A DNA stretch of 64,000 nucleotides from Candidatus Gottesmanbacteria bacterium (lineage in GTDB: Bacteria > Patescibacteriota > Microgenomatia > UBA10105 > UBA927), in contig JACRMP010000015.1 of assembly GCA_016214885.1 (NCBI GenBank), positions 13,420-77,419 of the forward strand, written 5' to 3'. Under the pieces are notes generated by a model. It saw only the letters and a program-made list of their open reading frames with translations, was not told the origin of the DNA and did no database searches. The translations under genes were made by a program, and so were the position numbers. Shown one piece after another: positions 12,427 through 61,380 of the stretch; positions within the stretch are counted from its first letter, which is position 1, and each line of letters starts with the position of its first letter.

Positions 12427-13530
12427 TCATTTTTTTTTGGTGCTGACAAGGCTCCATGATGCAATAAGTGTGGTAAGGGGAACGGCTATAATAAGTCCGA
12501 AGCTGCCCGACAGTGTGCGTACAATTTCTTCCACAATCAATTCACTATTAAGTATCGACCAAAGAGGGTAATGGTTAGGATTGGTTACCAGAATGATAAA
12601 AATAGGCAGTGATGCTCCCGCATAGGCAAGTACTAATGTATTTACCAGTGACGATACATGTTCCCTTCCTACGCGGAGACCGGCACCCATCAGTTCAATG
12701 AACGTAAGTTTTGCATTTGCCCGGTAGAGTTCAAATACGGCTGCCGTAAGCCCGGTCGTCACATCGTCCAAAACACCAAGCGCACCGATCAGAATACCTC
12801 CCAGCAATAAACCGCGGAAGTTGACGATAGACAGCGCACCTAATTTGAGCGAGTATGCATCCTCACTCCCAAGTCCTGTCAGGTGGAGTGAATGTACAAA
12901 GAATACGGAAAGTATTCCCGTAATGAGAAGTGTCAACGCGGTAGCGGCAAGGGCAACGGTGGTTTGTCGGGAAAACCCGTGAGCCAGATATATGGTTGTG
13001 ATCATGATGGCAAGTGACCCAAGTATGCTGATGGTGAGTGGATCATGACCCGCAAGAATACTGGGGACTATGTATTTGGCGATAACCAACAGGCTTATTC
13101 CCATGCCGATTATTGATCCGATGCCCCGCCATTGGCTGAGCAGGATAACACCCGCCGCAAATGCGACAAGAAATGGAACGAGGAGGTTAAGGCGGTAACG
13201 GTCGATAATCTGAAAAGTTGGAGCACCGTCGGTTCCCGTTGTTTCAAGCACGACTACTGTTTGTCCCGGTGCTACAAATTTGTCCTTATCTATGGAAAAA
13301 AGCGATCCATGATCCACTGTAATTGTTTTGTTCCTCAGATTGCCGTCAAGAAAGGTGACTTCTACAATCTGATAGGGAAGGCTCATGCCGTTATTGGTGC
13401 GCACTCCTTCTTCTGCCACCTTTTCTACACGTGCCCGGTGCTGGGAGTCCTGCAACTGCTGGGCGTATACGGGAGGAACTATAACAGAGAGAAAAATAAC
13501 GACCGCGGAGACGAATAGCAGTATGCGCAT
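12427..13530 (-). CDS. YibE/F-family membrane protein
   Basis: Signal/TM, a ~110-aa extracytoplasmic domain, then about 8 TM segments. Confidence 0.5.
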   Translation of the reverse strand: MRILLFVSAVVIFLSVIVPPVYAQQLQDSQHRARVEKVAEEGVRTNNGMSLPYQIVEVTFLDGNLRNKTITVDHGSLFSIDKDKFVAPGQTVVVLETTGTDGAPTFQIIDRYRLNLLVPFLVAFAAGVILLSQWRGIGSIIGMGISLLVIAKYIVPSILAGHDPLTISILGSLAIMITTIYLAHGFSRQTTVALAATALTLLITGILSVFFVHSLHLTGLGSEDAYSLKLGALSIVNFRGLLLGGILIGALGVLDDVTTGLTAAVFELYRANAKLTFIELMGAGLRVGREHVSSLVNTLVLAYAGASLPIFIILVTNPNHYPLWSILNSELIVEEIVRTLSGSFGLIIAVPLTTLIASWSLVSTKKK

Positions 13531-23601: not shown

Positions 23602-24351
23602 ATGAAAGGTGTCATACTTGCCGGAGGATTAGCCACGAGACTGCGTCCGCTTACTGCGGTAACCAATAAGCATTTACTGCCGGTATATAACAAGCCGATG
23701 ATTTATTATCCCCTGGAGATGATGAAGCGGATAGGGATGAAAGAAGTGCTTCTTATAACCAGCGGCGGTCATGTGGGTGATTTTGCCAACCTTTTGCTTT
23801 CGGGAGAAGAATTCGGGCTCCGGTTGTATTATGCCATTCAACAGAACCCGACGGGGGGAATTGCCGATGGCCTCAAGCTCGCTGAGGAGTTTGCGCATAA
23901 CGAACCTATCATGGTTATTTTAGGGGACAATATATTTAACTTTGATCTTACTGCTTCAATAAAGCGGTTTAATGACACCATAGAAAAGGATAAAAAAGGC
24001 GCAATGGTGTTTGGTGTGCATCGGGAAAAACTCGCCCAGCAGTATGGGGTTATCGAAATGGATAACGAGGGTAAGGTGATAAGCATCGAGGAAAAGCCGG
24101 AACACCCCAAGTCTGATATCGCCCAAACGGGCATTTATGTTTATGACAACAGGGTGTTTGATTTCACCAGAACGCTTAAACCCTCTGACCGCGGACAACT
24201 CGAAGTGACCGATCTTAACAATATGTATCTGGCTGAACACTCACTCATGTGCGAGCTTATAGATTGGTGGGTAGACGCAGGTACATCTCATGATGAATTA
24301 CTGCAGGCAAATGTGCAGGTTGCTGAATTTGTAAAACAAGGAAAACTCTAA
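23602..24351 (+). CDS. rfbA: glucose-1-phosphate thymidylyltransferase (short RmlA-type sugar nucleotidyltransferase)
   Basis: MKGVILAGGLATRLRPLT...KHLLPV nucleotidyltransferase N-terminus. Followed directly by rfbB. SD AAGGAG. Confidence 0.8.
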   Translation: MKGVILAGGLATRLRPLTAVTNKHLLPVYNKPMIYYPLEMMKRIGMKEVLLITSGGHVGDFANLLLSGEEFGLRLYYAIQQNPTGGIADGLKLAEEFAHNEPIMVILGDNIFNFDLTASIKRFNDTIEKDKKGAMVFGVHREKLAQQYGVIEMDNEGKVISIEEKPEHPKSDIAQTGIYVYDNRVFDFTRTLKPSDRGQLEVTDLNNMYLAEHSLMCELIDWWVDAGTSHDELLQANVQVAEFVKQGKL

Positions 24352-25367
24352 TGCGATTACTCGTAACCGGGGGAGCCGGATTCATAGGGGCAAACTTCAT
24401 CCTTTATTGGCTGAAGCATCATCCTGACGATGAGATAGTAAACTTCGATAAATTGACCTACGCCGGGAATTTGGAAAATTTGTCCAGTGTTGAAAAAAAT
24501 CCCCGCTACCGGTTTGTACAGGGGGATATTTGTGTATCAAAGGATGTTGTTGCCGCAATGGATGGCATCGATACGGTTGTTCATTTTGCCGCGGAAAGCC
24601 ACGTGGACCGTTCCATTCTTGAGGCGGCACCGTTTATCACCACAAATGTCACTGGCACTCAAGTGCTATTGGATGCTTCCCTCAAAGCAAAGGTAAAACG
24701 TTTCCATCATGTGTCAACAGATGAAGTGTTTGGCGCGCTGCCGCTTAATACGCCTGATAAGTTTAATGAGGCTACGGCATATGACCCCAGGAGTCCGTAT
24801 TCAGCTAGTAAAGCAGGATCGGACCATTTGGTGCGGGCATACTTCCACACGTTCGGACTCCCAGTCACTATAACCAATTGCTCCAATAATTACGGCCCAT
24901 TCCAGTTTCCGGAAAAACTTATTCCGCTTGCTGTCACAAATCTTCTGGAAGGCAGGAAAGTGCCGGTTTATGGGGATGGCAAATACGTGCGTGACTGGCT
25001 ATATGTCGATGACCATTGCAGGGCAATAGATGCAGTGCTCACCCGCGGACGCGTGGGGGAAACATATTGTGTGGGGGGGCTAACCGAAGATGTAGACAAC
25101 CTCACCATCATCAAAAATATTTTAACGATTATGGGTAAGGATGAGTCACAAATTGAATATGTCACCGATCGGCCGGGCCATGACCGCAGGTATGCAGTGG
25201 ACTGGACAAAAATTAATAAGGAGTTGGGATGGAAGCCGGAAAATGATTTCCAAACATGGCTCAATCTTACGGTTGCCTGGTATCGGGATCATGAGGATTG
25301 GTGGAAACGGGTAAAGAGCGGCGCGTATAAAGAATATTACGCAAAACAATACAAAAGCGCCTTATGA
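24351..25367 (+). CDS. rfbB: dTDP-glucose 4,6-dehydratase
   Basis: TGGAGFIG Rossmann motif, YSASK catalytic motif, RmlB-specific TNCSNNYGPFQFPEKLIP. Confidence 0.9.
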   Translation: MRLLVTGGAGFIGANFILYWLKHHPDDEIVNFDKLTYAGNLENLSSVEKNPRYRFVQGDICVSKDVVAAMDGIDTVVHFAAESHVDRSILEAAPFITTNVTGTQVLLDASLKAKVKRFHHVSTDEVFGALPLNTPDKFNEATAYDPRSPYSASKAGSDHLVRAYFHTFGLPVTITNCSNNYGPFQFPEKLIPLAVTNLLEGRKVPVYGDGKYVRDWLYVDDHCRAIDAVLTRGRVGETYCVGGLTEDVDNLTIIKNILTIMGKDESQIEYVTDRPGHDRRYAVDWTKINKELGWKPENDFQTWLNLTVAWYRDHEDWWKRVKSGAYKEYYAKQYKSAL

Positions 25368-25388
25368 CCGGGTAGTGAAACTTCAGAT

Positions 25389-25486
25389 GATTCTGTTCTT
25401 TTCATCCCGTACATAGGCGTTACATGAATAGTGAGGTGCGTGTAAATAGAATAGTGTCATGGGTTGTTAAGGAAAAGAGCAGAATC
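25389..25486. repeat. long-range inverted repeat (15-bp arms, 68-bp spacer) in the rfbB / rmlD-like intergenic region
   Basis: GATTCTGTTCTTTTC (25389-25403) versus GAAAAGAGCAGAATC (25472-25486), 14/15 complementary. Shares the core TGTTCTTTTC/GAAAAGARCA with the repeat at 58088-58178. Confidence 0.6.
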
Positions 25487-25609
25487 AGGTAAATTTATGC
25501 AAAATGCCGTATCACGACTGGAATATAGATTGATTATGGAAGCTTCTGAATCGCTGTCGAAGCGAATGTTACTTCGCGCGGCGTTTTGCCTGAAGTTCTA
25601 CTACCCGGT

Positions 25610-26308
25610 ATGAAACTTCTGGGAACCGGCTTATCAGGGTTGGTTGGGTCGCGTATTGTGGCGCTTCTGTCACAGCATACATTCACCAATTTCAGCCTGG
25701 AAAACGGCGTTGATATAACCGACAGTGCTTCGATTACCCCCCGTATTACCGGTGACACTGATTCCCCTTGGGTATTGCACCTTGCGGCCTACACCAATGT
25801 CCAGCAGGCAGAGGCAGATGCGTTGTTGGGTGAGAATAGTACGGCGTGGAAGGTAAACGTCGCCGCTACCCAAACGCTCGTTGATGCATGCCGCATCACG
25901 GGCAAGCATTTGCTGTATATCGATACCGATTATGCATTTGACGGGGCTAAAGACGTATATTCTGAAGAGGACACACCGCATCCGCTGGGCTGGTACGCCA
26001 AGACTAAATCCGAAGGGGCAATCGCAGCAGCCATAGACGCACTCATGTCCCGCCAAGCCAGCGGTATCTATCATGTGGTGGGGAGTGAAGCCCTTTCTCC
26101 TTATATAGCTGCAGGTATTGTGGCAAAAACATACGGACTCGATGAAGCGCTAGTGAAGCCCACCACCTTTGCTTCTTATTTTGCAGGCAAAGCTCCAATT
26201 CCCCAAAAAGCCGTATTAACAAACGGAAAAATCCGTGCATTGGGGGTTAGCATGCGTGGGTTTGCTGACGGGGTTTCTGAGATGAAACGTCAGGAAGAGA
26301 ATTCCTGA
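25610..26308 (+). CDS. RmlD-like NAD(P)-dependent dTDP-4-keto-6-deoxyhexose reductase (short form)
   Basis: GTGLSGLVG Rossmann motif, VLHLAAYTNVQQAEAD, and catalytic YAKTK. These align to RmlD HxAAxTxVDxAE and YGKTK. Alternative upstream start at 25586. Confidence 0.55.
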   Translation: MKLLGTGLSGLVGSRIVALLSQHTFTNFSLENGVDITDSASITPRITGDTDSPWVLHLAAYTNVQQAEADALLGENSTAWKVNVAATQTLVDACRITGKHLLYIDTDYAFDGAKDVYSEEDTPHPLGWYAKTKSEGAIAAAIDALMSRQASGIYHVVGSEALSPYIAAGIVAKTYGLDEALVKPTTFASYFAGKAPIPQKAVLTNGKIRALGVSMRGFADGVSEMKRQEENS

Positions 26309-33677: not shown

Positions 33678-35201
33678 ATGCGATGGAATGCAAAATGGCT
33701 CCTGTTTGCGTTGGGGGTAATTGCCCTGGCAACAGCGTACGCCGTAACCCGGCTTAGCAATCTTACGGCGCTACCCATATTTACCGATGAAGCCATATAT
33801 ATCCGCTGGTCCCAGATCGGCATGCGGGATGCCGCGTGGCGGTTTATTTCCCTGTCTGACGGCAAACAGCCGATGTTTACCTGGGTGATGATGATCCTCC
33901 TTAAGGTGTTTGAGGGGATGGACCCGTTGTTTATTGGCAGGCTGACCTCTGTTATTGCGGGGGCAGGAACACTTATCGGGTTATGGCTTGTTTCCAATGA
34001 TTTGTTCAGGGATAAGCGGGTAGCCTGGATGACCGGAGTTATTTATGTATTACTGCCGTTTAGCACCTGGTACGACCGGGTAGCGCTGTATGACTCCATG
34101 GTGGGCACGTTTGCGGTATGGAGCCTGCTTCTGGCCATACGATTGGTACGTAAGCCTCAACTGGATACCGCCCTTATTCTCGGTATGGTACTGGGAGCCG
34201 GTATGCTTAATAAAAGCTCGGGATTTTTGTCGCTGTACTTTTTGCCGGTAACACTTTTGCTGTTTGACTGGCAGGCAAAAAATATTCGTCGCAGACTGAT
34301 TACCTGGGCGGGACTGGTACTATTGGCAGCGTTACTATCCCAGGTGTTTTACAGCGTGCTGAGGCTCTCGCCACTCTTCCACATGGTAGGGCAAAAAGAC
34401 AATGTATTTATTTTCTCCATGAGCGAATGGCTTAACCAACCATTCCGGTTTTTGGAAGGGAACCTCCGGGGAATGTTTGACTGGCTCAGGCATTACATGA
34501 CCCTCCCGCTGTTTATTGCTGCATTCGTACCTATTTTTATGCGGTGGCCCAAAACACGGGAAACATGGCTTCTGTATTTTTGGTGGGCGCTGCCGTTTGC
34601 AGCACTTGCTAACTTTGCCAAGATTCTTTATCCGAGATTTATTTTTTTCATGACCCTGCCGCTAGTTATGGCGGCGGCATTTACCGCCATAATGCTGTGG
34701 GATAAGCTCAAGAATCGGTCCATGCGCTACATTATGCTGGCCGCACTTCTCATTCCAAGTATATATACGACCTGGTTTGTGGTCACCCAGCCTAAAGCCG
34801 CTCCCATACCCCTTGCTGAGCGAGGGCAATTTATCGATGACTGGCCTGCGGGAGGCGGGGTAAAAGAAGTGGTTTCCTATCTTGCCGCTGAATCAGCGTA
34901 TCAGAAGATTAACGTGTTTACCGAGGGAACATTCGGTTTGCTGCCCTACGCTCTCGAAATATACCTGGTTGACCGGCCGAACGTGACGATTACCGGCATT
35001 TGGCCGATCCCGCCGGTGATTCCTGATGAGATTGCCCGCGCCGCCAGCAGTTCAGCAACCTATTTTGTCATGAATGAATCACAGGTTGCTCCTGACTGGC
35101 CGATTATATTAATCGGTGAATATGAGAAGGGGAACAGGGCTGACCACAAGAAACTGCGTTTTTACCGGGTAAATACTCCGCCGTTTTCTGACCCGCAGTA
35201 G
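33678..35201 (+). CDS. GT-C-fold membrane glycosyltransferase, ArnT/PMT-like (group E)
   Basis: ~12 TM. FTDEAIYIRW matches the DE motif in the first extracytoplasmic loop typical of the ArnT/PMT_2 family. Confidence 0.6.
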   Translation: MRWNAKWLLFALGVIALATAYAVTRLSNLTALPIFTDEAIYIRWSQIGMRDAAWRFISLSDGKQPMFTWVMMILLKVFEGMDPLFIGRLTSVIAGAGTLIGLWLVSNDLFRDKRVAWMTGVIYVLLPFSTWYDRVALYDSMVGTFAVWSLLLAIRLVRKPQLDTALILGMVLGAGMLNKSSGFLSLYFLPVTLLLFDWQAKNIRRRLITWAGLVLLAALLSQVFYSVLRLSPLFHMVGQKDNVFIFSMSEWLNQPFRFLEGNLRGMFDWLRHYMTLPLFIAAFVPIFMRWPKTRETWLLYFWWALPFAALANFAKILYPRFIFFMTLPLVMAAAFTAIMLWDKLKNRSMRYIMLAALLIPSIYTTWFVVTQPKAAPIPLAERGQFIDDWPAGGGVKEVVSYLAAESAYQKINVFTEGTFGLLPYALEIYLVDRPNVTITGIWPIPPVIPDEIARAASSSATYFVMNESQVAPDWPIILIGEYEKGNRADHKKLRFYRVNTPPFSDPQ

Positions 35202-52327: not shown

Positions 52328-53971
52328 TCAGCGGAGGGTTGCCGCGATAAATACCCCGGGTGTGTATCTGCCTGATATGTCTCCCACCTTTTCAAATGCT
52401 TTCTCGTGGACAGCATATTCCGGTTTAGAAAGGATAAATAATGTTTTCTCTCCCTCAGTAAGTGCCGTCAGGTCAAGTTTGGGATCCATAAGCTTGATGC
52501 CGTTAGTGTCCCAGGTGGCGGCGGTAAATAGATACTTACCGAAGTGCTCCCTCGTCCCTGATTGCTGATAAAAGGTAGGATCGACGGCATTCCAGTAGAG
52601 CATAAAGACGTAGGGGCGCCAATAATAGCCGGATATGACAACCCTGTCATATTCAGTTTCATGCGCCCTGACATATCCCGCCATTTGTTTATAGCCGTCG
52701 CCGAAGGAAAGCGCGTTTTTGGTTGGATTGTCTACAAAGTACGCGTAGTGAAATTTAGGGAAAACGAGCAAAAATGCGATCCCCATGAGTATTGCGGATA
52801 GCGTTGCTGCTTTAACGGAATTTTTTTGTTTTACATACCCATATAGAGAGAGGATGCCCAAGCCTGTTATAAGAGAAAAGACCGGGGCGGCAATAAGGGT
52901 GCGCAGGGTATTGGGCTGGTTTACACTGAACGCACCAGGCAAAAACGCCGTAAATAGCCAGATGCAAATGAAAACTGCCGCAAACGGCGACAACGTTGTG
53001 AGTGAAAGTAATCCCAATGGAATCAGTATTGCCTCAATAGGATAGAGAGTGCCGTAGGTGCCGGTTCCGGTGACAAACAAATTGTGGGGCGATATATTTT
53101 TCGCGTAATTATCTACTATGGTTTGGGCAAGTGCGACCCTGCGGTTATATACAATTTTTTGGATGAGGGTGGGAGTAATTCCCATTTTATTGACATACTC
53201 TTCCCGCAATTTATGATAGTTGGGGTCATTGACGACGCTTACGATGGAAATCCGCTCCATGCCGCCGGGGGAGAGCATTTCCCTTCCCATGGGAAAGAAA
53301 GCCAAAAGACAAATTACTGCGGTAAGCAGTGTAATTTTCCATTCTTTGATAATTACTTTTCTCAGGTAGATGAGATAAAAAAGTCCGACAAACGGGATAA
53401 CCAGGCGTACGGAATAATAAAAATAAAGCGCGGCAACGAAACTAAGACCTGCAGGCAGAATAAAGGAGTATTTTTTAATACTCCGCAACATGAAATAGGT
53501 GCCAAGCATAAACCAGAACACAGCGCCATTGCTTTCAAAAAGCTGGCGCGAAAAATTTATGTGCCACGGGGATACGGCAAATACCAGCATAGGGATAAGC
53601 GCCTGTTTCCGGTTTTTAAGAATTTCTAGGGCTATCCCATACATGAGTACTACGGAAAGCACACCGAAGATGGCCGATGGAAGCCGTGCGGATAGTTCAG
53701 AAAGACCAAACAACGCTACCATAGGGACGGTAGCATATACCATGCCGGGAAGTTTATAGTCATCGAATGACCGGAAAAGGAGGGGGTAGCCAGCCCCGTA
53801 TTCATCTTTGCCCGTTTTCAGAATTGAATAGGCGTTGTACGCAATAGCAGTTTCGTCATGAGACAGCGACGGGGGGATTTGGGTAAGCCGGTCAAACCGC
53901 AGATAGATACCTACGGTTAGTATGACAGTGAATAACAGCCAAACGGCCGGAGATTTTTTAATTTGTTTCAT
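52328..53971 (-). CDS. GT39/GT83-like (ArnT/PMT_2 family) GT-C membrane glycosyltransferase (group C)
   Basis: SHDETAIAYNAYSILKTGKDEYG DE-loop motif, ~12 TM. Tandem with paralog 53968-55602. Confidence 0.7.
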   Translation of the reverse strand: MKQIKKSPAVWLLFTVILTVGIYLRFDRLTQIPPSLSHDETAIAYNAYSILKTGKDEYGAGYPLLFRSFDDYKLPGMVYATVPMVALFGLSELSARLPSAIFGVLSVVLMYGIALEILKNRKQALIPMLVFAVSPWHINFSRQLFESNGAVFWFMLGTYFMLRSIKKYSFILPAGLSFVAALYFYYSVRLVIPFVGLFYLIYLRKVIIKEWKITLLTAVICLLAFFPMGREMLSPGGMERISIVSVVNDPNYHKLREEYVNKMGITPTLIQKIVYNRRVALAQTIVDNYAKNISPHNLFVTGTGTYGTLYPIEAILIPLGLLSLTTLSPFAAVFICIWLFTAFLPGAFSVNQPNTLRTLIAAPVFSLITGLGILSLYGYVKQKNSVKAATLSAILMGIAFLLVFPKFHYAYFVDNPTKNALSFGDGYKQMAGYVRAHETEYDRVVISGYYWRPYVFMLYWNAVDPTFYQQSGTREHFGKYLFTAATWDTNGIKLMDPKLDLTALTEGEKTLFILSKPEYAVHEKAFEKVGDISGRYTPGVFIAATLR

Positions 53972-55602
53972 TTGTCCGTATCGATTATCGTAAAATGCGG
54001 TGTAGCATCGGGTAGTTGTATTTCAGCAACAACTTTTGGCTGGAGTTCACGCGGCACTTCATCGGATTTGGCAATAAGCAGAGTATTGGGGACGGCAAGA
54101 TCCTTTTGCCAGTCTATGGCTCTGAATGAAAATCTTCCGAAGCCTGATACATCGGAGAATCCGTCTCGCGATATCGGGTAACGGGTAGCCTGTTTTTGAT
54201 AGCTCCCCGGGTTGTATCCGCTGTAAAACATGAGATAGATATACGGGGATGTTTCGGGGTGTGTCATGATGACATTTTTATTTTTATTACTGTCAGAAAA
54301 TAAGACGGGGGTGAGTTTTTTGTATGCGTAGCCCCAGTGGGTAGCTTCGTTTTTGGGGAAGTGGACAAAATATCTGTCAAGATAATATCCCATGGAGCCC
54401 ATGTAGCCTGCTATCAGAACGAGTATCGCAATTTTTTTTCCGTGGGCAGAAGTATATTCCATAAAGAGATGAAATCCGGCACCGGCGGCAATGGCAAACG
54501 ACGGTACGACGGCAAGCATGCGGTTGGAATGGGGCGCATCTTTGGTGATAGCGGCGGCAACTGCACCTGTTGCAATCCACCATAAAATGAATTTTGATTC
54601 CTTTTTCCGGAGCTGAGATATAAGCCATGAAATACCCGCGATGAGAAGCGCTGCTTCTATAGGATGGAGATTGCCATAGCCTTGGATATTATGTGCTCTG
54701 TTGCCGCCTCCCTTGATAAACAAAAATTCTGATCCGTATGACTTGAGGTAGTTTTGGGTAACGGTGATGATAGCGTACGTTACCCTATTGTGCATAAGGC
54801 GGGTAGCTATTGAATTTGGATTGTCGTGCAGAAGACGCGGTAACTCAATTTCTTTGTGAATAACCGTTGGGTCTCCGAATATGGATATGCCGCTTATTTT
54901 GGTGTGATCAGCCGAAAACGTAACGGCAAGTATAGTGAGCGTGAGCGTTCCTCCTGCAGCTAGCGCCACCCACCAGCGGGGAACGCGGATAATATCTTTC
55001 CAGTAGATGATAACAATACCCAGTAGGAGGAGGGTAGTGGATATATGGGTGCCGTGATACGTCCAGTAGGTGAGGGCAAAAAGAATTGCAGCCAACGTGA
55101 GGTACAGCACTGATTTATTGCGGAGCGCAGTAAGAAACAGAAGGGAGCCTGTTATGCAAAAAAATACCGCTGTCACCGCTTCAGATTCCACCCGCGAAAT
55201 ATGGATATGCCACGGCATGAGTGCTAAAGATAAGGCCGCCACTAATGCTATTGAAGATGAGGAGAATAGCATTCTCGCCAGGAAAAATAAGAGAGCGACG
55301 GAGGCAGAGCCTGCAAGCGCCGACGGAAGACGGACAGCAAGCTCCGAAAGTCCAAATATCTTCACAAACGGTATGGTCATGTAAATATATAACGGCAATT
55401 TCCAGTCTCCGAATGACTCAAATGATAGAGGAAACGTTCTCCCGTATTCATCTTTACCCGTGGTCATCAGGGAGTATGCAGTTACACCGATGCTTGCTTC
55501 ATCGCGATTGACACCGGGCGGGGTGTTACGTAATCCGTAAAGCCTGAGTATGGCTGCTATTATGATGATGGAAATTAACGAGTATCTGACGAACGGTTTC
55601 AT
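53968..55602 (-). CDS. GT39/GT83-like (ArnT/PMT_2 family) GT-C membrane glycosyltransferase (group C)
   Basis: NRDEASIGVTAYSLMTTGKDEYG motif. Stop/start overlap with both neighbours. Confidence 0.7.
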   Translation of the reverse strand: MKPFVRYSLISIIIIAAILRLYGLRNTPPGVNRDEASIGVTAYSLMTTGKDEYGRTFPLSFESFGDWKLPLYIYMTIPFVKIFGLSELAVRLPSALAGSASVALLFFLARMLFSSSSIALVAALSLALMPWHIHISRVESEAVTAVFFCITGSLLFLTALRNKSVLYLTLAAILFALTYWTYHGTHISTTLLLLGIVIIYWKDIIRVPRWWVALAAGGTLTLTILAVTFSADHTKISGISIFGDPTVIHKEIELPRLLHDNPNSIATRLMHNRVTYAIITVTQNYLKSYGSEFLFIKGGGNRAHNIQGYGNLHPIEAALLIAGISWLISQLRKKESKFILWWIATGAVAAAITKDAPHSNRMLAVVPSFAIAAGAGFHLFMEYTSAHGKKIAILVLIAGYMGSMGYYLDRYFVHFPKNEATHWGYAYKKLTPVLFSDSNKNKNVIMTHPETSPYIYLMFYSGYNPGSYQKQATRYPISRDGFSDVSGFGRFSFRAIDWQKDLAVPNTLLIAKSDEVPRELQPKVVAEIQLPDATPHFTIIDTDK

Positions 55603-57977
55603 AGTCTCTTTTTTTGTATGATGAGGAGCAATATAATTGTCGCACCTAGGCTAGCGGCACTCAAGAGTATACCCAGGGTGACACTGAAGGGTGCATAGAT
55701 CATGATAACTTCATGTTTGCCTGAAGGAACGTTAATTCCCCGCATGGTCCAATTTACCCGCGCTATAGCGGTGGGTTTGCCGTCTACGGTTGCAATCCAT
55801 CCGGGGTAAAACGTATCCGTCACGACCAGTGTTCCTGACACAGAACTCTCTGTTTTGACCATAACCCTCTCAGGTTCGTAAGAGGTGATGGCAGCGCTTC
55901 CTGTGGCAGGGAAGCCTTTGACTATACTTACCCCCTCAGGGAAAAGGGCGGTGGTAATGGGATTAAATCCATCAGAAAAAAATATGTCGGTGAAATCCCT
56001 GCTATTTTCATATGTTTTTGATTCTCCTGCAACGAATGCGCGGGGAAGAGCCTCGGTATTTTCATATATTGCCCAGTCGTCGAAGCTGTGGATTTTTTTG
56101 ATGACGTGGGGAGGATACGTCTGTTCACTGCTGGCGTTTTCCATCCGATCCAGAATATACCTGACACTGAGGGCGCTTAACACTTTCCGCTTCGTTTCAT
56201 CGGAGAGACCGCCGTCCCCGAACCGGGATGAGATGGCTGCGTCGGAGCGCGATGCGTTGTCAAATATTTCCATGAGCTGGCCGTTTCTGTATGCATACAA
56301 AAACTCACCGTACCACTTGGGATACAGGGGATCATATCCTTCCGGTGAAAAAAGACGGTATTGCGACGCAAAGTTTGCGCTTATATTTGCCGTTCCGTAG
56401 CCCCAGTACCGCCCTAATTGGGCAGAAGACAGGTATGCTATCGTTTTGTGTTCGGGGAACACGAGCTCTTTTGACACAAACGGATTAAACCGGTTGAAAA
56501 ACACAAAAAGATCCATGACATGGATGACTAATAGTACGGTTATGGCTAACGTGCGCATTTTCGGGAGCGCAATAGCAATCCAGAATAAGCCCAATGTGGC
56601 TGCAGACAAAGCCATTCCGTATATGAGAGCCCGTACTGCCACGCCTGCATGGAGCGACAGCTCCGGGGTAAACGGAAGTTTGGTGCCGATAAACAATACG
56701 GCGAAGATTCCCGCCACCTCGATAGTTCTTCTGAATAGTTTTTTAAGCGAGTGCTTATCACGCATCCAGAAGTCTAAGCCTAAACCGCACATCATGGAAA
56801 GTGAGAATGCCAGTAAAAATGACATAAGCGTAGGGCTGCTGGAGGTGAAAAGAGGAATCGGCACCCGATAGAGAATCTGTGTAATCGGATTAGTGGTAAG
56901 GAGTAGTGCGGTGGTCAGCACTGCCAGGATAAACCATTTGGATATCGTATCTTTCCGGCGCAGCGCTGACAGTGAAAAGAATAGCGGAATAAGTCCTATG
57001 GTGGTCACCTTCCCCACAAAGGTATCGCTTGGCCAATAGGTGCGGGTTGCCGGGTTGCCGAATAGATTGGGGAAGGGAAGCGCAAACAACTGACCCGGAT
57101 GGATGAGTATTTTTGCAAATAGATTACCCGGATCATGCGGGCTCCTGGCAGCATGACTGACAAGTTCCATACCGGGGACAACCTGAATGCCCGCAATTCC
57201 GATTCCTAGTGCGGTAAATCCGAGTAAATACGGCCACATAGTTCGGTGCATCCTGAACAATCCGTAGGTGACAGAAAATGCACAGGCATATGCATAGACC
57301 TGGGGGTGTCCAGCAAGAAGCGACATGACGTGGGACAATGTGTATATGCCGAGCCATAGCGGGCTGATTCGTTCCCGTAAGTGTTCTATGGCAAGCAGTA
57401 TGAGTGGGAGCCATAGAACGACGTGGCCTATGGTGTTGTATTCAAGCCAGACTGCCATAAATCCGGAGAATCCGTATGAAGTCGCGGCCAACCAGCTTCC
57501 TAGTGGTCTCATGCCGATTTTTCTGCTAAAGAGATAGGTAAAAAGAACCGCAAGCAGTGGTTGGGTGATCACCAGGATAGTCCATGCGTCAATCTGCGCC
57601 ATGAACAGGTAGAGAATGCCCAGGGGATATACGGCGGCACTTTGGAAGTTTGCAAGGAGCGGGGAGCCGGAAAAATTATACGGATTCCAGAGGGGTAGCC
57701 GTCCTTTCTGAAGCGAATTTATTACTGCCGTTTTCCACGGGTACATTTGACGGATGGTGTCGGGGTATTGCGCCTTGTTGGGTATCCCGCCCGCACCGTA
57801 CCCCAAGTAGGAAGTTGACCGCCACGGCTGGAAGTCGCTTACCAGAATATCCCCGGGGAACGGGACTTTACCACGGAATACAGTCTGATAAAAAAACAGG
57901 GAAATAACGGCAGAAAGTATAACAAGAACCAACATCCATTCGTTTCGTTTCATACCGGGTAGTAGAGCTTCTGGCAA
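55599..57977 (-). CDS. YfhO-family GT-C membrane glycosyltransferase (group B, 792 aa)
   Basis: VPFPGDIL...MYPWK...LPLWNPYNFSGSP N-terminus, and C-terminal DTFYPGWIATVDGKPT...PSGKHEV plus a TM anchor. Confidence 0.65.
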   Translation of the reverse strand: MPEALLPGMKRNEWMLVLVILSAVISLFFYQTVFRGKVPFPGDILVSDFQPWRSTSYLGYGAGGIPNKAQYPDTIRQMYPWKTAVINSLQKGRLPLWNPYNFSGSPLLANFQSAAVYPLGILYLFMAQIDAWTILVITQPLLAVLFTYLFSRKIGMRPLGSWLAATSYGFSGFMAVWLEYNTIGHVVLWLPLILLAIEHLRERISPLWLGIYTLSHVMSLLAGHPQVYAYACAFSVTYGLFRMHRTMWPYLLGFTALGIGIAGIQVVPGMELVSHAARSPHDPGNLFAKILIHPGQLFALPFPNLFGNPATRTYWPSDTFVGKVTTIGLIPLFFSLSALRRKDTISKWFILAVLTTALLLTTNPITQILYRVPIPLFTSSSPTLMSFLLAFSLSMMCGLGLDFWMRDKHSLKKLFRRTIEVAGIFAVLFIGTKLPFTPELSLHAGVAVRALIYGMALSAATLGLFWIAIALPKMRTLAITVLLVIHVMDLFVFFNRFNPFVSKELVFPEHKTIAYLSSAQLGRYWGYGTANISANFASQYRLFSPEGYDPLYPKWYGEFLYAYRNGQLMEIFDNASRSDAAISSRFGDGGLSDETKRKVLSALSVRYILDRMENASSEQTYPPHVIKKIHSFDDWAIYENTEALPRAFVAGESKTYENSRDFTDIFFSDGFNPITTALFPEGVSIVKGFPATGSAAITSYEPERVMVKTESSVSGTLVVTDTFYPGWIATVDGKPTAIARVNWTMRGINVPSGKHEVIMIYAPFSVTLGILLSAASLGATIILLLIIQKKRL

Positions 57978-58087
57978 AACGCCTCTCTTAGAGAATATAC
58001 TCTTAATCGGCTTTTGAGAAGTCTCCTTCCTTAATGGTTATTGCGTTAGATTGTCCGGCGTTTTGCATAAATAAATTAAATTATGTT

Positions 58088-58178
58088 CTTTTCCATTACA
58101 ATCCTATTTCTTTATCTTGTTTATTTTCTTTATGCGCAGACTGCAGTACTGTGACCGGACAGAAAAGAACATAATTTC
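58088..58178. repeat. long-range inverted repeat (16-bp perfect arms, 59-bp spacer) between two minus-strand YfhO-like genes
   Basis: AAATTATGTTCTTTTC (58088-58103) versus GAAAAGAACATAATTT (58163-58178). The spacer contains the 8-bp palindrome CAGTACTG. Core TGTTCTTTTC/GAAAAGAACA is shared with 25389-25486. Confidence 0.65.
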
Positions 58179-58200
58179 CGAAGTTTCACTACCCGGCATA

Positions 58201-59832
58201 TTACGATTTTTTGCGTATTCCCAATGCATATAACGCCGCGGCGGCTATAAGAGAGAATAATGTTACCGTTTCTGCGATACGCCGCACCGGCGACTCCTCC
58301 CATACTACACGGACATGATGGGTTCCCCCGGGCAAACGGAAAGTGATAAGCCCCCTCCAATTTTGATCCTGGAATTCTACCGGAATTTTTTTGCCCCCCG
58401 CATACACCCGCCAGCCGGGGAAATACTGGGTGCGGTCAACTACCTGGACGTCATTTGCAGCTGTTACCGTGAATGTATGAAGGGTTCCTTTTTTAACGGG
58501 ATTACTGATGGTACCTGTCCCTCCCACAATTTCAAAACGGTTTTCGGGATACGATCCTGCGGGGCCTGCTGACCAGATAACATCCGTTTCCCCGAAGTAT
58601 GTGGTGTTCAGAGGATAATCCCAAAAATACCGTTCATCGATTTTATCCATCCCCAGCGGCGGACGGAAATACACCGCAGTCGAGGCAACGGTCATCGTTA
58701 TCAATATGACAATAAGATACAAAGGCGTCTTTTTGTTGATGTATACTACTCCACCAAGAATAGCCAGGGAAAATGCAGTAATATTAAGAAGCCTCCACGG
58801 AAACTGGAACATCCGCAGGATGGGGATATTAGTCCAGAGAAATTGGGAAACGGGCTGCATGACAAAAAGAGCTAATCCTGTTAAAAAGAGCGCAAACCAT
58901 ACCGTCTTTTTTTCGGTAGCACTGTTTATTTTTTTCCGGAGGATAAGAGTAATCGCATAAAAAAGCGACACTACCTGGGTGAGCCCCAACGAAACGGCTA
59001 TGCCGCCTGTTTGGAGACTTGCGGCATTAGTGAGGTTGGGGATAAAAAAATTAACAAACGGTGCAAAGTGTGATTTATACATGTCCTTCATAAATAAATC
59101 GCCGTAGGTATACCGTCGTTCAATAATTGCGGGTATCCAATAAAAGGCGGACAAAGTGAGTCCGAGGGTAAGACCCATAAACCCCTCGATACGTTTTTGG
59201 TGGTTAGGGCTGAACAGAAGCACAAACAGGGTAATGACCCCGAAAAATACGAGGCTTATGGCATTGTGGGAAGTGATAAGAAGCAGGGTGGAAACTCCGG
59301 TAAACAGTACGTTAAGGTAGCTGTTATTTTGTGTAAATCCACGGGTGACGGCATACAGCACCAATGGAAGGAATGCCAGCGCATAGCCCTCAGCCATGTC
59401 GCCGCGTACTAAAAGGTCGATCAGATGAAATGGGGCAAACTGGTAGAGTATGGTCGCAAGCAGTGCTTTCCCTTCATGTTTGAAAAACCGCAGACTGAAA
59501 AGGTACATGAAAATCCCTGAAAGCAAAAAGCTTACCGTAAGGGAAATTTTGAATGCAAAAACCAATCCGCCACCCAGGGCGACAACCGCAGAGGCGACTA
59601 CATACGGAACATGGTAAATAAAGTTGAATAGCGGCATACCATAGCCGTAATTGAGTTCGCCTGCCCACCGCGGGAGAATCTGTCCTTCGGACAACGCTTT
59701 ATAGTAGGCGGCAATACGGGCGAAATGAACAGGGCTGTCGTGTGTATGGGGGGCCAGATCAGTGATAAAAAGGGATATAAACGGGAGAAGCGAAATTGCA
59801 ATAACAAGGATATAGTGCTTAAATGATTTCAT
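58201..59832 (-). CDS. YfhO-like GT-C membrane glycosyltransferase (group A, 543 aa)
   Basis: HTHDS...EGQILPRW...GYGMP N-terminus, and C-terminal TQYFPGWRVYAGGKKI...GGTHHV plus a TM anchor. Confidence 0.6.
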   Translation of the reverse strand: MKSFKHYILVIAISLLPFISLFITDLAPHTHDSPVHFARIAAYYKALSEGQILPRWAGELNYGYGMPLFNFIYHVPYVVASAVVALGGGLVFAFKISLTVSFLLSGIFMYLFSLRFFKHEGKALLATILYQFAPFHLIDLLVRGDMAEGYALAFLPLVLYAVTRGFTQNNSYLNVLFTGVSTLLLITSHNAISLVFFGVITLFVLLFSPNHQKRIEGFMGLTLGLTLSAFYWIPAIIERRYTYGDLFMKDMYKSHFAPFVNFFIPNLTNAASLQTGGIAVSLGLTQVVSLFYAITLILRKKINSATEKKTVWFALFLTGLALFVMQPVSQFLWTNIPILRMFQFPWRLLNITAFSLAILGGVVYINKKTPLYLIVILITMTVASTAVYFRPPLGMDKIDERYFWDYPLNTTYFGETDVIWSAGPAGSYPENRFEIVGGTGTISNPVKKGTLHTFTVTAANDVQVVDRTQYFPGWRVYAGGKKIPVEFQDQNWRGLITFRLPGGTHHVRVVWEESPVRRIAETVTLFSLIAAAALYALGIRKKS

Positions 59833-59877
59833 AGAAAGCTAGGGATTAACCGCATTATAGCAAAGTATAACCAAATA

Positions 59878-61380
59878 ATGAGCAAGGTGCGCGCGATTGA
59901 TTGGGTTAAGGTTGGAATTATTTATATAGCCACACTACTCCGGGTGTACAGGCTTGATTCACTCACCGAATTTTTGGGAGACCAAGGCAGGACGATGCTT
60001 GTTATGCGCCGATTTATAGAAGACGGCGTTGTCCCGCTGTCGGGGCCCACTACCCTGAGCGGACATAATCTTGGTCCCATATTTTATTATCTGCTTGCCC
60101 CCGGTTATCTTATTTCCCATGGCCCGTTTGGTGTATCCATGTGGAGTGCTCTATTAGGAGTTTTGTCGGTTGCTATCCTTTACCGGGCTGTTACCCTGAT
60201 GTTTGGCATATGGCCAGCAAGGGTGGTTTCGCTTCTATGGGCGGTGTCTCCTGTTATTATTTCTGCTGACCGCACTATCTGGGAGCCTAATCTGGTGCCG
60301 CTTTGGTCAGTGCTGTTTATCTTTCTATTATATAGGGCATACCGGAAATGGCACGGTATCCTTTGGGTAGGAGTGGGAGCCTCGGTAGGAGTGCTTATCC
60401 AGCTTCATTATCCGAATATATACTTCTTGGGGCTTACTGCCTTGGCCTTGGCAGGGGCAAAGATATACCGCAAAAAAAGCAATAACGATATATTTCGGAG
60501 TCTAATATGGTGTACGGGGGGATTTGTCGCAGTGTTGCTTCCGTTTCTTTGGTATGAGTTTACGGTGGGATTTAAAGATATCACCGGAATTGCATCTATA
60601 ATAGCCGACGGAGCGGGTGCCACGATGGGCAAGCGCGTCATGCTCTGGCAAAGCCTTGATTACAGCTACCGCGTATTAGGAAGAATGATTCCTGAAATGA
60701 GCAGGATTCCGGCGGCGGTACTCCTTTTGTTGTGGGGAATATTTGTGTTGTTCCGCCCGACGCCCAAAAATATATTTTTTTCGCTTTGGTTTGCCGGAGG
60801 AATTGCCGCAATGGTGCGGTATGCGGGAGTTGTCCACGATCATTATTTGTTTTTCCTTACCCCCGTTCCGTTTTTTATGCTCGCCTCGGTGGTATCGTCG
60901 GTGACCAATCCTGTTTGGAAAAAAGCAGTTTTACTTTGTTTAACCGGGCTTATTCTGTATCAATTTATGCAGACAGACATCGCAGACTACGGGAAAAATG
61001 ACCTTGCACGGGTAAGCATGGCGGTTGCCAGGATGAAAGCGGATGCAGGGCAAGAGCGTTTTTCATTTACCCTCATTAACACCAGATCATTTTCCGATCT
61101 TCATTACCGGTATTATATGCGTGTAATGGGGGTGACTCCCATGCCGGTCGGGGAAGCTAATTACCGGAAGCTATATGTTATGTGCGAGAGTTCCCGCTGT
61201 CCTACTGTTACCCAAATCACCTCTATCACTACGTTGCCGGTGCTTTGTTATGACGAGCACTGTGCTGATACCTACACAGGTATTCCCCTGTGGGATTCCT
61301 GGTCATATATCCGCCATGAGCGTGTAGTGGATAGTGGGCGTATTCTGGGAACGCTGTATGTATTCGAGCGCCGGCAGTGA
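59878..61380 (+). CDS. GT-C-fold membrane glycosyltransferase, ArnT/PMT-like (group D)
   Basis: Paralog of 29773-31356 (FLGDQGRTMLV, ...WEPNLVPLWS...). Confidence 0.6.
   Translation: MSKVRAIDWVKVGIIYIATLLRVYRLDSLTEFLGDQGRTMLVMRRFIEDGVVPLSGPTTLSGHNLGPIFYYLLAPGYLISHGPFGVSMWSALLGVLSVAILYRAVTLMFGIWPARVVSLLWAVSPVIISADRTIWEPNLVPLWSVLFIFLLYRAYRKWHGILWVGVGASVGVLIQLHYPNIYFLGLTALALAGAKIYRKKSNNDIFRSLIWCTGGFVAVLLPFLWYEFTVGFKDITGIASIIADGAGATMGKRVMLWQSLDYSYRVLGRMIPEMSRIPAAVLLLLWGIFVLFRPTPKNIFFSLWFAGGIAAMVRYAGVVHDHYLFFLTPVPFFMLASVVSSVTNPVWKKAVLLCLTGLILYQFMQTDIADYGKNDLARVSMAVARMKADAGQERFSFTLINTRSFSDLHYRYYMRVMGVTPMPVGEANYRKLYVMCESSRCPTVTQITSITTLPVLCYDEHCADTYTGIPLWDSWSYIRHERVVDSGRILGTLYVFERRQ

What the first reader, a model, noticed from the sequence alone, without database searches (positions are those of the whole stretch)
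58088..58178. Intergenic long-range inverted repeat (copy 2) between two YfhO-like genes
The arms are a perfect 16-nt pair AAATTATGTTCTTTTC / GAAAAGAACATAATTT, and the 59-nt spacer holds the 8-bp palindrome CAGTACTG. The repeat lies downstream of the group-A YfhO-like gene (58201-59832, minus) and about 110 nt upstream of the start of the group-B YfhO-like gene (55599-57977, minus). It could be a large terminator-like hairpin, a structured leader, or a looping operator pair. It shares its core with the element at 25389-25486.
Basis: seen in the sequence. Interest (0 to 1): 0.6.

Follow-up and report, generated by a model that had tools for sequence, protein, structure and literature searches.

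The report
Decayed mini GIY-YIG mobile element (MITE)
The inverted repeat is an internal stem of a 242-bp dead copy of a tiny mobile DNA element that normally carries only an 89-residue GIY-YIG nuclease gene and lands exactly on the start codons of host genes in ultra-small (CPR) bacteria; the repeat itself is ordinary, but I found no description of the element family.

Summary
The perfect 16-nt inverted repeat is real, but it lies at 58078-58093 / 58162-58177 with a 68-nt spacer. It is the only such repeat in the window. It is not a terminator, host leader or operator.

It is helix P2 of a 242-bp element (57955-58196, sense on the minus strand). The element has 19-nt terminal inverted repeats and is flanked by a 4-bp duplication, TATG. 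Orthologous loci at 83% and 77% YfhO identity carry the empty site (TAA-TATG-AAAC).

The second copy (25368-25608, rmlB/rmlD junction) also has empty sites in relatives (ATGA overlap; duplication TATGA). Both copies share the same two internal deletions relative to ~310-bp intact elements. Intact elements have the same terminal repeats around one 89-aa Slx1-like GIY-YIG ORF.

The repeat's arms correspond to the ORF's start-codon region (-5..+11) and codons 28-33. The three helices are free of synonymous change in intact genes and carry compensatory changes in the dead copies.

In 11 of 12 family members the right end lies 0-1 nt from a co-oriented host ATG.

What moves the element, and what P2 does, are inferred. 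I found no published description.

The parts
58197..58200 (-). Left target-site duplication TATG of copy 2 (read on the minus strand)
   Evidence: The filled site reads cgtaaTATG[element]TATGaaacg. The empty sites in L127/L128 (cctaaTATGaaacgc) and L129 (aaataaTATGgtacg) have a single TATG.
58178..58196 (-). Left terminal inverted repeat (P1 5' arm) CCGGGTAGTGAAACTTCGG
   Evidence: 4 matches in the window against 0.15 expected. The same repeat bounds intact GIY-YIG elements.
58162..58177 (-). P2 5' arm AAATTATGTTCTTTTC.
   Evidence: Intact elements read AGATT-ATG-TTCTTTTA.
58094..58161 (-). 68-nt P2 loop: decayed remnant of codons ~5-27 of the GIY-YIG ORF, no open frame. Contains the chance palindrome CAGTACTG (58144-58151).
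58078..58093 (-). P2 3' arm GAAAAGAACATAATTT.
58057..58066 (-). P3 5' arm GCAAAACGCC (ancestral codons D-A-K-R-R)
57984..58056 (-). P3 loop: pseudogenised C-terminal third of the GIY-YIG ORF. It reads ..AKRRTI*RNNH*GRRLLKSRLRVYSLREAF against DAKRRENYLKTSQGGRLLKRRLKEYLFHLRFA in intact copies.
57974..57983 (-). P3 3' arm GGCGTTTTGC (ancestral codons L-R-F-A)
57955..57973 (-). Right terminal inverted repeat (P1 3' arm) CAGAAGCTCTACTACCCGG
57951..57954 (-). Right target-site duplication TATG. Its ATG (57953-57951) is the start codon of the YfhO gene 55599-57953.
   Evidence: The protein from this ATG is 100% identical over 784 aa to P0001.
25363..25613 (+). Copy 1 of the same MITE with its duplications: TATGA (25363-25367), left repeat 25368-25386, P2 arms 25388-25403 / 25472-25487, P3 arms 25499-25508 / 25580-25589, right repeat 25590-25608, TATGA (25609-25613). 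The ATG at 25610 starts rmlD.
   Evidence: nhmmer E 1.3e-48. The empty sites ..ttATGAaa.. are in L140, L141 and L142.

Best explanation
SHOWN. The repeat is helix P2 of a 242-bp non-autonomous (MITE-type) derivative of a ~310-bp mobile element. Intact elements consist of a 19-nt terminal inverted repeat (CCGGGTAGTGAAACTTCAG), 6 nt, one 270-nt ORF for an 89-aa Slx1-like GIY-YIG nuclease, and the matching right repeat, which overlaps the stop codon. Insertion duplicates 4-5 bp, (T)ATG(A). Because the target overlaps a start codon, and often the upstream stop codon, both host genes stay intact and the downstream gene uses the ATG of the right-hand duplicate. The whole element can fold, as RNA or single-stranded DNA, into a three-way junction. 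P1 is the two terminal repeats. P2 pairs the ORF start region with codons 28-33. P3 pairs codons 59-62 with codons 86-89. The two window copies have lost 65 nt and the reading frame but keep all three helices.

INFERRED. (a) The dead copies were mobilised in trans by the machinery that moves the intact elements. The most likely agent is the GIY-YIG nuclease itself, making a 4-5-nt staggered cut at TATG and/or acting on the folded ends as a structure-specific enzyme. (b) In intact elements P2 hides the nuclease start codon and limits its translation from host read-through transcripts. P2 persists with compensatory changes in ORF-less copies, which suggests the fold is also needed in cis for mobility. 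(c) At this locus the copy is probably a near-neutral passenger in the operon transcript.
For: Anatomy: nested inverted repeats and two copies with identical architecture.

Presence/absence: L126 (89% YfhO identity) is filled. L127/L128 (83%) and L129 (77%) are empty with a single TATG. Copy 1 is empty in L140, L141 and L142, where rmlB and rmlD overlap by ATGA.

Homology to the GIY-YIG element: L130 has a 242-nt relative whose frame 1 is 96% identical to the C-terminal 57 aa of the 89-aa P0121. Intact elements in L136, L137 (two), L138/L139, L143 and L153 have the same repeats and TATG/ATGA duplications. nhmmer places window copy 2 at E 6e-55.

Shared deletions: copies 1 and 2 share 38-nt and 27-nt deletions, so they have a common non-autonomous ancestor.

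Helices: 94.9% of cells are paired, against 37-48% when partners are slid. There are 8 double-change cells (1 of 500 shuffles reach this). In P2, A-U becomes C-G at the former start codon in copy 1 (ATG>CTG with CAT>CAG). In intact ORFs, 0 of 13 conserved-residue codons inside helices show synonymous change against 28 of 46 outside (Fisher p = 6e-5).

The ORF is functional in intact copies: dN/dS 0.10-0.25 with dS 0.5-1.3.

Position: in 11 of 12 members the right end lies 0-1 nt from a co-oriented host ATG.

Recent movement: copy 2 is 97.5% identical between the window and L126, while the flanks are 81-84% identical.

Protein class: PF01541. The closest sequences and folds are UPF0213 BH0048 and Slx1.
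Against: No experiment or transcript data exist. No intact GIY-YIG element lies in the 64-kb window, and the rest of this genome could not be read, so a trans-acting source in this organism is not shown. That the 89-aa nuclease is the mobilising enzyme is pure inference: no GIY-YIG transposase is known to me, and a separate transposase recognising these repeats was not excluded. Only two copies lie in the window. The covariation sample is small (9 sequences, 4 pairs with double changes). Non-Watson-Crick variants show no bias towards G-U on the sense strand (about 4 versus 3), so RNA and DNA function cannot be told apart. Between the orthologous window and L126 copies, 2-3 of 6 differences fall in helices, so there is no sign that the host protects the fold after insertion. 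The duplication length varies (4 or 5 bp). One short relative (L081) sits at TTGA inside an ORF, not at a start codon.
Confidence: 0.88

Rival explanations
1. The element is the same, but it spreads by homing. The GIY-YIG enzyme cuts empty alleles and the filled allele is copied in by recombination, as with free-standing phage homing endonuclease genes. The flanking 4-bp repeats would then be incidental.
For: GIY-YIG is a classic homing-endonuclease fold (weak TIGR01453 match). Copy 2 is far more similar between two lineages (97.5%) than its flanks are (81-84%), at exactly the same site.
Against: The family occupies many unrelated loci: rmlB/rmlD, PTPS/YfhO, ddl, fusA, HMA, GalT-like, thymidine-phosphorylase-like and others. 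Each has a site-specific duplication (TATG, ATGA, TATGA, TTGA) that matches a single copy in the empty sites. Terminal inverted repeats and ORF-less derivatives that still spread are transposon features. No co-conversion tract is visible: differences begin 4 nt from the duplication. The protein has no DNA-recognition domain (89 aa).
Confidence: 0.15
2. It is an ordinary MITE family mobilised by a conventional (DDE) transposase encoded elsewhere. The GIY-YIG ORF of the 310-bp form is only a passenger gene.
For: Terminal inverted repeats plus a 4-5-bp duplication are typical of DDE insertion sequences (my own knowledge). Family members with unrelated interiors share the repeats (L132, L134, L081).
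Against: No larger unit bounded by these repeats was seen in any fetched locus. This is a weak test because the genome scan was saturated by chance hits. The ORF fills the element from end to end and its stop codon overlaps the right repeat. It is under purifying selection. A distant GIY-YIG relative has its own, different repeats (L119), so repeats and ORF co-evolve as a unit.
Confidence: 0.15
3. It is a host cis-regulatory structured RNA upstream of YfhO and rmlD: a leader, a processive-antitermination element or a translational-coupling device. It may have been exapted from the insertion.
For: The sense strand folds strongly (-74.7 and -93.7 kcal/mol, z -5.7 and -7.3). Both copies sit in glycan-synthesis operons, co-oriented with the downstream gene. 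P1 brings the upstream stop codon and the downstream start codon together.
Against: The unit is absent from orthologous sites in near relatives. There is no Rfam match even at E<=1. The antisense strand also folds well. Relatives sit in front of unrelated genes. The orthologous copies show no helix protection.
Confidence: 0.05
4. It is a Rho-independent terminator or a DNA-looping operator pair for the YfhO gene.
For: It is a perfect 16-bp stem downstream of one gene and upstream of another.
Against: The loop is 68 nt, the stem is AT-rich and there is no U run. No terminator-like and no promoter-like site lies in 57700-58500. The arms are former coding sequence of a mobile element.
Confidence: 0.02
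5. The perfection of the 16-nt arms and the 'compensatory' changes are mechanical rather than selected. Template switching in quasi-palindromes during replication would correct one arm against the other.
For: Quasi-palindrome correction is an established mutational process (my own knowledge). After insertion, the helices show no extra protection in the window/L126 pair.
Against: In intact genes the helix codons show no synonymous change across copies with dS 0.5-1.3. That pattern indicates purifying selection on the nucleotide sequence. All three separate helices behave alike.
Confidence: 0.15

Closest known systems
Bacterial MITEs (for example Correia elements of Neisseria, RUP, Nezha)
   Same: Small size (242 bp), terminal inverted repeats, short target-site duplication, no intact ORF, insertion at gene junctions, ability to fold into a long hairpin, and derivation by internal deletion from a longer element with the same ends.
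   Different: The parent is not an IS with a DDE transposase. It is a ~310-bp unit whose only ORF is an 89-aa GIY-YIG nuclease. Insertion is orientation-specific and falls on start codons. Internal helices are conserved as well as the ends.
Free-standing GIY-YIG homing endonuclease genes (T4 seg genes, I-TevI-type enzymes)
   Same: A selfish GIY-YIG nuclease gene inserted between host genes. The element is more conserved than its flanks.
   Different: The protein is the minimal Slx1/UPF0213 type without any DNA-binding extension. The element has terminal inverted repeats, makes target duplications, occupies many unrelated loci and has non-coding derivatives.
Prokaryotic Slx1-like / UPF0213 (YhbQ, BH0048) stand-alone GIY-YIG proteins
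   Same: These are the best sequence and fold matches for the element's protein. They are the same minimal size.
   Different: PMC1564403 describes the Slx1 family as showing strong conservation and vertical descent. It cites an earlier prediction that its prokaryotic members act in double-strand break repair, and it places the selfish GIY-YIG members in the other (UvrC+) lineage. Here the gene is bounded by inverted repeats, is polymorphic in location, and leaves dead copies.
IS10/IS50-type fold-back inhibition of transposase translation
   Same: A stem that hides the start codon of the element's own gene. This would blunt expression from read-through host transcripts. (My own knowledge of IS10/IS50.)
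   Different: Here the partner of the start region lies inside the ORF (codons 28-33), not in the element's end. The stem is also kept in copies that have no ORF.
Rickettsia palindromic elements (RPE)
   Same: One short relative (L081, 68 nt) lies in frame inside a protein-coding gene without breaking it.
   Different: No sequence relationship was tested. RPEs have no known coding parent.

Membership tests
MITE (miniature inverted-repeat transposable element) | Small non-coding unit bounded by terminal inverted repeats | tested here: met
   242 bp with 17-19-nt repeats. Every frame is broken by stop codons and no intact ORF remains.
MITE (miniature inverted-repeat transposable element) | Target-site duplication, with matching empty sites in relatives | tested here: met
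   TATG for copy 2 and TATGA for copy 1. Single copies are seen in L127/L128/L129 and in L140/L141/L142.
MITE (miniature inverted-repeat transposable element) | Several copies, and a longer coding element with the same ends | tested here: met
   There are two copies in the window with shared deletions. Intact 310-bp elements are in L136, L137, L138, L143 and L153. The total copy number in this genome is unknown.
MITE (miniature inverted-repeat transposable element) | Mobilised in trans by the parent's enzyme | not testable with these tools
   Needs a mobility assay.
Rho-independent terminator | Short GC-rich hairpin followed by a U run | tested here: not met
   No terminator-like site in 57700-58500. 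The loop is 68 nt and the arms are AT-rich.
Any described RNA family (Rfam 15) | Match to a curated covariance model | tested here: not met
   No hit at gathering thresholds in the window. No hit at E<=1 in 57900-58250.
Conserved host regulatory leader of the YfhO gene | Present in orthologous intergenic regions | tested here: not met
   It is absent where YfhO identity is 83% and 77%; there the genes are 1 nt apart.
GIY-YIG nuclease superfamily, Slx1/UPF0213 branch (parent ORF) | GIY-YIG domain by sequence profile | tested here: met
   PF01541 is recorded for the intact proteins. The L130 remnant scores E 9e-4, below the curated cut-off because it is half a domain.
GIY-YIG nuclease superfamily, Slx1/UPF0213 branch (parent ORF) | Closest solved relatives and fold | tested here: met
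   phmmer hits: 1zg2 at 2.5e-4 and Slx1 4xlg at 1.6e-3. The AF2 model has pLDDT 89.1. Foldseek hits: 1zg2 and Slx1 6seh (TM 0.69), ahead of I-TevI and UvrC.
GIY-YIG nuclease superfamily, Slx1/UPF0213 branch (parent ORF) | Nuclease activity and substrate (branched DNA versus sequence-specific) | not testable with these tools
   Needs biochemistry.
Free-standing homing endonuclease gene | One cognate homing site, no terminal repeats or target duplication, DNA-binding extension | tested here: not met
   There are many unrelated sites with site-specific duplications. The repeats are present, and the protein is 89 aa with the catalytic domain only.
IS200/IS605 or REP/RAYT-type hairpin elements | Subterminal hairpins, no terminal inverted repeats, no target duplication, Y1 transposase | tested here: not met
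   Terminal repeats and duplications are present. No Y1 gene was seen. This comparison rests on my own knowledge of those families.

The most novel reading that the evidence does not exclude
The ~310-bp unit is an autonomous transposable element of a new class. Its only protein would be an 89-aa Slx1-like GIY-YIG nuclease acting as the mobility enzyme, recognising (T)ATG(A) and/or the element's own three-way-junction fold. By duplicating start and stop codons it would insert harmlessly at gene junctions of streamlined CPR genomes. That would make it the smallest self-mobilising DNA element known, and would recast a large part of the 'stand-alone GIY-YIG / UPF0213-like' proteins of Patescibacteria as selfish genes. 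The family has 1,138 clusters at 50% identity with E<=1e-10.
Probability: 0.4. Interest if true: 0.9.

Novelty: new variant of a known kind. Interest (0 to 1): 0.72.

Why it matters
For this locus the result is a correction: the intergenic hairpin is a transposon relic, not a regulator of the glycosyltransferase genes.

More broadly, CPR/Patescibacteria genomes are regarded as streamlined, and their many 'GIY-YIG nuclease family protein' genes are annotated as if they were housekeeping genes. The data here show that at least one large clade of these genes is bounded by terminal inverted repeats. The genes are polymorphic in location and make target duplications. They insert precisely at start codons so that operons survive, and they leave MITE-like relics.

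If the 89-aa nuclease is itself the mobility enzyme, this would be a new transposition chemistry and a new lower size limit for autonomous elements. It would also give a compact nuclease with a defined short target and a structured DNA or RNA partner.

The family offers a natural test of how a start-codon-hiding helix and whole-element folding let a selfish gene ride inside host operons.

Tried and rejected
1. Rfam at gathering thresholds and at E<=1 gave nothing.

2. The promoter and terminator consensus scan gave nothing.

3. Invertible promoter switch. I considered this because of the nested inverted repeats. I dropped it because the arms are former coding sequence, the spacer is 68 nt, and every copy has the same internal orientation.

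4. EAR/LoaP-like antitermination leader in glycan operons. I dropped it once the empty orthologous sites were seen.

Of 120 loci, L081 carries a short form bounded by both repeats and L096 the right repeat at the end of an intact element. A solo right repeat in L119 was found later. The L060 pair is a long perfect palindrome in an unrelated MAG. L077 is a tandem coding repeat.

6. The metagenome two-arm scan returned L133 and L135, which are unrelated long palindromes and were discarded.

7. Viral contig scans with two element-specific patterns gave no hits. tblastn of P0121 found one weak phage hit (34% identity) and no plasmid hit.

8. My recollection that IS1380 has CC ends and 4-5-bp duplications was not pursued after the GIY-YIG parent was found, and was never tested.

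9. The L138 versus L139 comparison of element and flanks was uninformative: the strains are close and differ by an indel and an upstream rearrangement.

10. A G-U versus A-C bias test to decide between RNA and DNA function was inconclusive.

11. Ten literature searches found no description of terminal-repeat-bounded GIY-YIG elements in CPR. This is not proof of novelty.

Full report
OBSERVATION

The window contains a perfect 16-nt inverted repeat, AAATTATGTTCTTTTC / GAAAAGAACATAATTT. It lies at 58078-58093 and 58162-58177 with 68 nt between the arms. It is the only perfect inverted repeat of 12 nt or more with a spacer of 100 nt or less in all 64 kb. None of 30 dinucleotide shuffles gave a 16-mer pair. 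The palindrome CAGTACTG is present at 58144-58151. It is absent from copy 1, and 8-bp palindromes are common, so I give it no weight.

LARGER ANATOMY

The repeat is nested. Three pairs are present.
- An outer pair: CCGGGTAGTAGAGCTTC at 57955-57971 and GAAGTTTCACTACCCGG at 58180-58196.
- A second inner pair: GCAAAACGCC at 57974-57983 and GGCGTTTTGC at 58057-58066.

The same three pairs, in the same order and spacing, occur at 25368-25608 on the other strand. The outer 17-mer matches four times in the window against 0.15 expected.

Read on the strand of the downstream gene, both copies start just after the stop codon of one gene and end 1 nt before the ATG of the next. Copy 1 separates rmlB (24351-25367) from rmlD (25610-). 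Copy 2 separates a PTPS_related membrane protein (58201-59832) from a YfhO protein. The YfhO start is most likely ATG 57953: the protein read from there is 100% identical over 784 aa to a database protein.

Both strands fold strongly as RNA, the sense strand somewhat better. There is no Rfam match, even at E<=1. No promoter-like or terminator-like site was found.

ORGANISM

NCBI names the identical YfhO protein as coming from 'Candidatus Gottesmanbacteria bacterium'. The window corresponds to a 242-kb MAG contig, with strain variants at 98-99% identity.

IT IS AN INSERTION

I fetched orthologous loci through homologues of YfhO. L126 (89% protein identity) has the unit. L127/L128 (83%) and L129 (77%) do not: there the two genes are 1 nt apart.
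- Empty site in L127: cgcaaaaaaacctaaTATGaaacgcaacgaatgg
- Filled site in the window: cgcaaaaaatcgtaaTATG[242 nt]TATGaaacgaaacgaatgg

So the unit is bounded by a 4-bp duplication of TATG. The right-hand copy supplies the YfhO start codon.

The same holds for copy 1. In L140, L141 and L142 (85-96% RmlB identity), rmlB and rmlD overlap by ATGA (..ttATGAaac..). The window has ..ttATGA[CCGGG..CCCGG]tATGAaac.., a 5-bp duplication, TATGA.

WHAT THE INSERTION IS

A metagenome scan for the two outer arms at the right spacing returned four real relatives.
- L130 and L131, identical to each other: 242 nt, ATGA duplication.
- L132: 242 nt, TATG duplication, opposite strand.
- L134: two tandem ~125-nt units, each flanked by TATG.

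L130 has an open frame, VGLNRSTKAYVPWKLIYYEACLNEQDAKRRENYLKTSQGGRLLKRRLKEYLFHLRFA*. This frame matches the GIY-YIG profile. It is 96% identical to the C-terminal 57 residues of P0121, an 89-aa 'GIY-YIG nuclease family protein [Candidatus Gottesmanbacteria]'.

The DNA around intact homologues shows the full element. In L138 it reads TATG|CCGGGTAGTGAAACTTCAGAAGATT-ATGTTCTTTTAT...(270-nt ORF)...CGTTTTGCCTGA-AGTTCTACTACCCGG|TATG, about 310 bp in all. Six distinct intact copies (L136, L137a, L137b, L138/L139, L143, L153) have the same ends. Four carry an exact TATG or ATGA duplication (L136, L138, L143, L153). In L137b only ATG remains at the left junction. L137a and L139 have degenerate left junctions.

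An nhmmer profile of the family finds the window copies at E 6e-55 and 1.3e-48, and nothing else in the window.

Aligned to the intact elements, both window copies lack the same 38 nt and the same 27 nt. They therefore descend from one already-defective 242-bp progenitor that inserted at two sites. This is the definition of a MITE. Their residual frame still shows the ancestry: copy 2 reads ..AKRRTI*RNNH*GRRLLKSRLRVYSLREAF.

In intact elements, the left arm is AGATT-ATG-TTCTTTTA, which is positions -5 to +11 around the nuclease start codon. The right arm is TAAAAGAACATAATCT, which is codons 28-33 (VKEHNL). The second inner pair is codons 59-62 against codons 86-89. The outer pair is the terminal repeats. 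The intact element folds into the same three-way junction (-106.3 kcal/mol, z -6.2).

The helices are constrained at the nucleotide level.
- Among five intact ORFs with dS 0.5-1.3 and dN/dS 0.10-0.25, none of the 13 conserved-residue codons inside helices shows a synonymous change, against 28 of 46 outside (p = 6e-5).
- In the ORF-less copies the pairing is kept through double changes. In copy 1 the former start codon is CTG and its partner CAT has become CAG. The closing A-U is C-G in both window copies. P3 has A-U changed to C-G.
- On nine sequences, 94.9% of cells pair, against 37-48% when partners are slid. The eight double-change cells are reached by 1 of 500 shuffles. L153, which was not among those nine sequences, adds two more double changes in P1.
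- A distant GIY-YIG gene in a Sungiibacteriota MAG (43% identity) has different ~26-nt terminal repeats that again include its start codon.

TARGET BEHAVIOUR

In 11 of 12 family members, the right end lies 0-1 nt from an ATG opening a co-oriented host ORF of 69-784 aa. T precedes that ATG in nearly all cases, more often than at ordinary start codons in this window (about 40%, read by eye).

Because the duplication spans the start codon, and at ATGA overlaps the stop codon too, both neighbours remain intact.

The exception is a 68-nt short form in a Saccharibacteria MAG (L081). It lies in frame inside a long ORF with a TTGA duplication.

RECENT MOVEMENT

Copy 2 is 97.5% identical (236/242) between the window and L126. 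The adjacent 300 nt on either side are 81-82% identical, and the two flanking genes 83-84%. Differences begin 4 nt from the duplication. Simple vertical inheritance does not explain this. The alternatives are recent independent insertion at the same TATG or a homing-like transfer with almost no co-conversion. I cannot tell which.

THE PROTEIN

The 89-aa protein is a minimal GIY-YIG domain. The nearest solved sequences are UPF0213 BH0048 (1zg2, E 2.5e-4) and Slx1 (4xlg, 1.6e-3). An AlphaFold model (pLDDT 89.1) matches 1zg2 and Slx1-Slx4 structures (TM up to 0.69), ahead of I-TevI and UvrC. The family is large: 7,429 clusters at 50% identity with E<=1e-3 and 1,138 with E<=1e-10. It is essentially absent from the phage and plasmid collections and from viral contigs.

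MECHANISM

Shown: a mobile unit with terminal inverted repeats and a 4-5-bp duplication; dead derivatives; conserved helices; and start-codon placement.

Inferred:
- The nuclease of intact copies mobilises both forms. It may do so by a staggered cut at TATG or by acting on the folded ends. Slx1 enzymes cut branched DNA (PMC1564403 and the titles of the matched PDB entries).
- P2 limits translation of the nuclease from host read-through transcripts, in the manner of IS10/IS50 fold-back inhibition (my own knowledge).
- Because P2 survives in copies with no ORF, the fold is probably also required in cis.
- The window/L126 pair shows 2-3 of 6 differences inside helices. I therefore see no evidence that the host maintains the fold at this locus.

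COMPARISON AND NOVELTY

The window feature passes every MITE criterion that can be tested here. The parent differs from every IS family I know. [quoted passage not shown] It differs from homing endonuclease genes in having terminal repeats, duplications, many targets and non-coding derivatives.

The 2006 survey of the superfamily (PMC1564403) describes the Slx1 family as showing strong conservation and vertical descent. It cites an earlier prediction that its prokaryotic members act in double-strand break repair, and it places the selfish GIY-YIG members in the other lineage.

Ten literature searches found no description of these elements. The library does not cover everything.

I file the finding as a new variant of a known kind: a MITE with an unusual, apparently undescribed parent. 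The reading that the parent is a new class of autonomous element remains open at about 0.4.

Noticed in passing
window 26021 (rmlD, 25610-26308): The window's rmlD has a 174-nt in-frame deletion relative to strain variants L001, L003 and L004 (232 aa against 290 aa). The junction reads GGGGCAA|TCGCAGC.
   Followed up: partly
window 57955-58196 versus L126 3759-3999: The element is 97.5% identical between two lineages whose flanking genes are only 81-84% identical, right up to the duplication. This implies recent transfer, repeated insertion at the same TATG, or homing-like spread.
   Followed up: partly
L081 2573-2640 (Candidatus Saccharibacteria MAG): A 68-nt short form with the same terminal repeats lies in frame inside a long ORF (..ITQ-PGSRTSGSGEAALKKTPEVSLPG-QPEEN..). 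It is flanked by TCAA on the + strand of the locus (TTGA in the element's sense orientation). This resembles Rickettsia palindromic elements.
   Followed up: partly
L134 2581-2836: Two tandem ~125-nt short forms, each flanked by TATG, lie immediately before a 673-aa ORF. The same start codon was hit repeatedly.
   Followed up: no
L130 9094-9130: The 242-nt relative carries a nested mini-hairpin (CCAGGTAGTGAAAGC / GCTTCTACTACCTGG) that resembles the terminal repeats. It replaces the N-terminal half of the GIY-YIG ORF.
   Followed up: no
L119 228-515 and 4066-4082 (Candidatus Sungiibacteriota MAG): A GIY-YIG gene only 43% identical has its own, different ~26-nt terminal repeats that include its start codon. 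Elsewhere on the same contig, a solo right repeat of the Gottesmanbacteria type abuts a host ATG.
   Followed up: partly
window, starts of most genes (for example 12427-13530, 33678-35201, 58201-59832): Few genes have a Shine-Dalgarno sequence. Many have a TATAAT-like box 6-12 nt before the ATG, which suggests frequent leaderless mRNAs in this organism.
   Followed up: no
P1 helix, window 58184-58185 / 57964-57965 and all relatives: The terminal repeats always differ at the same two adjacent positions (GA on one arm, AG on the other), giving a conserved G-T plus A-C pair in the middle of P1. In L136 the two arms are swapped relative to the ORF.
   Followed up: partly
intact elements, codons 65-75 (for example L138 1317-1349); window 58010-58030: The stretch CAAGGAGGGAGRCTTCTC is nearly free of synonymous change and survives in the dead copies. 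It contains a Shine-Dalgarno-like AAGGAGG and can form a small hairpin. Its role is unknown.
   Followed up: no
window 52328-61380: A cluster of five large membrane glycosyltransferase-like genes (PMT_2 x3, YfhO, PTPS_related) is conserved in order in relatives L126, L127 and L129.
   Followed up: no
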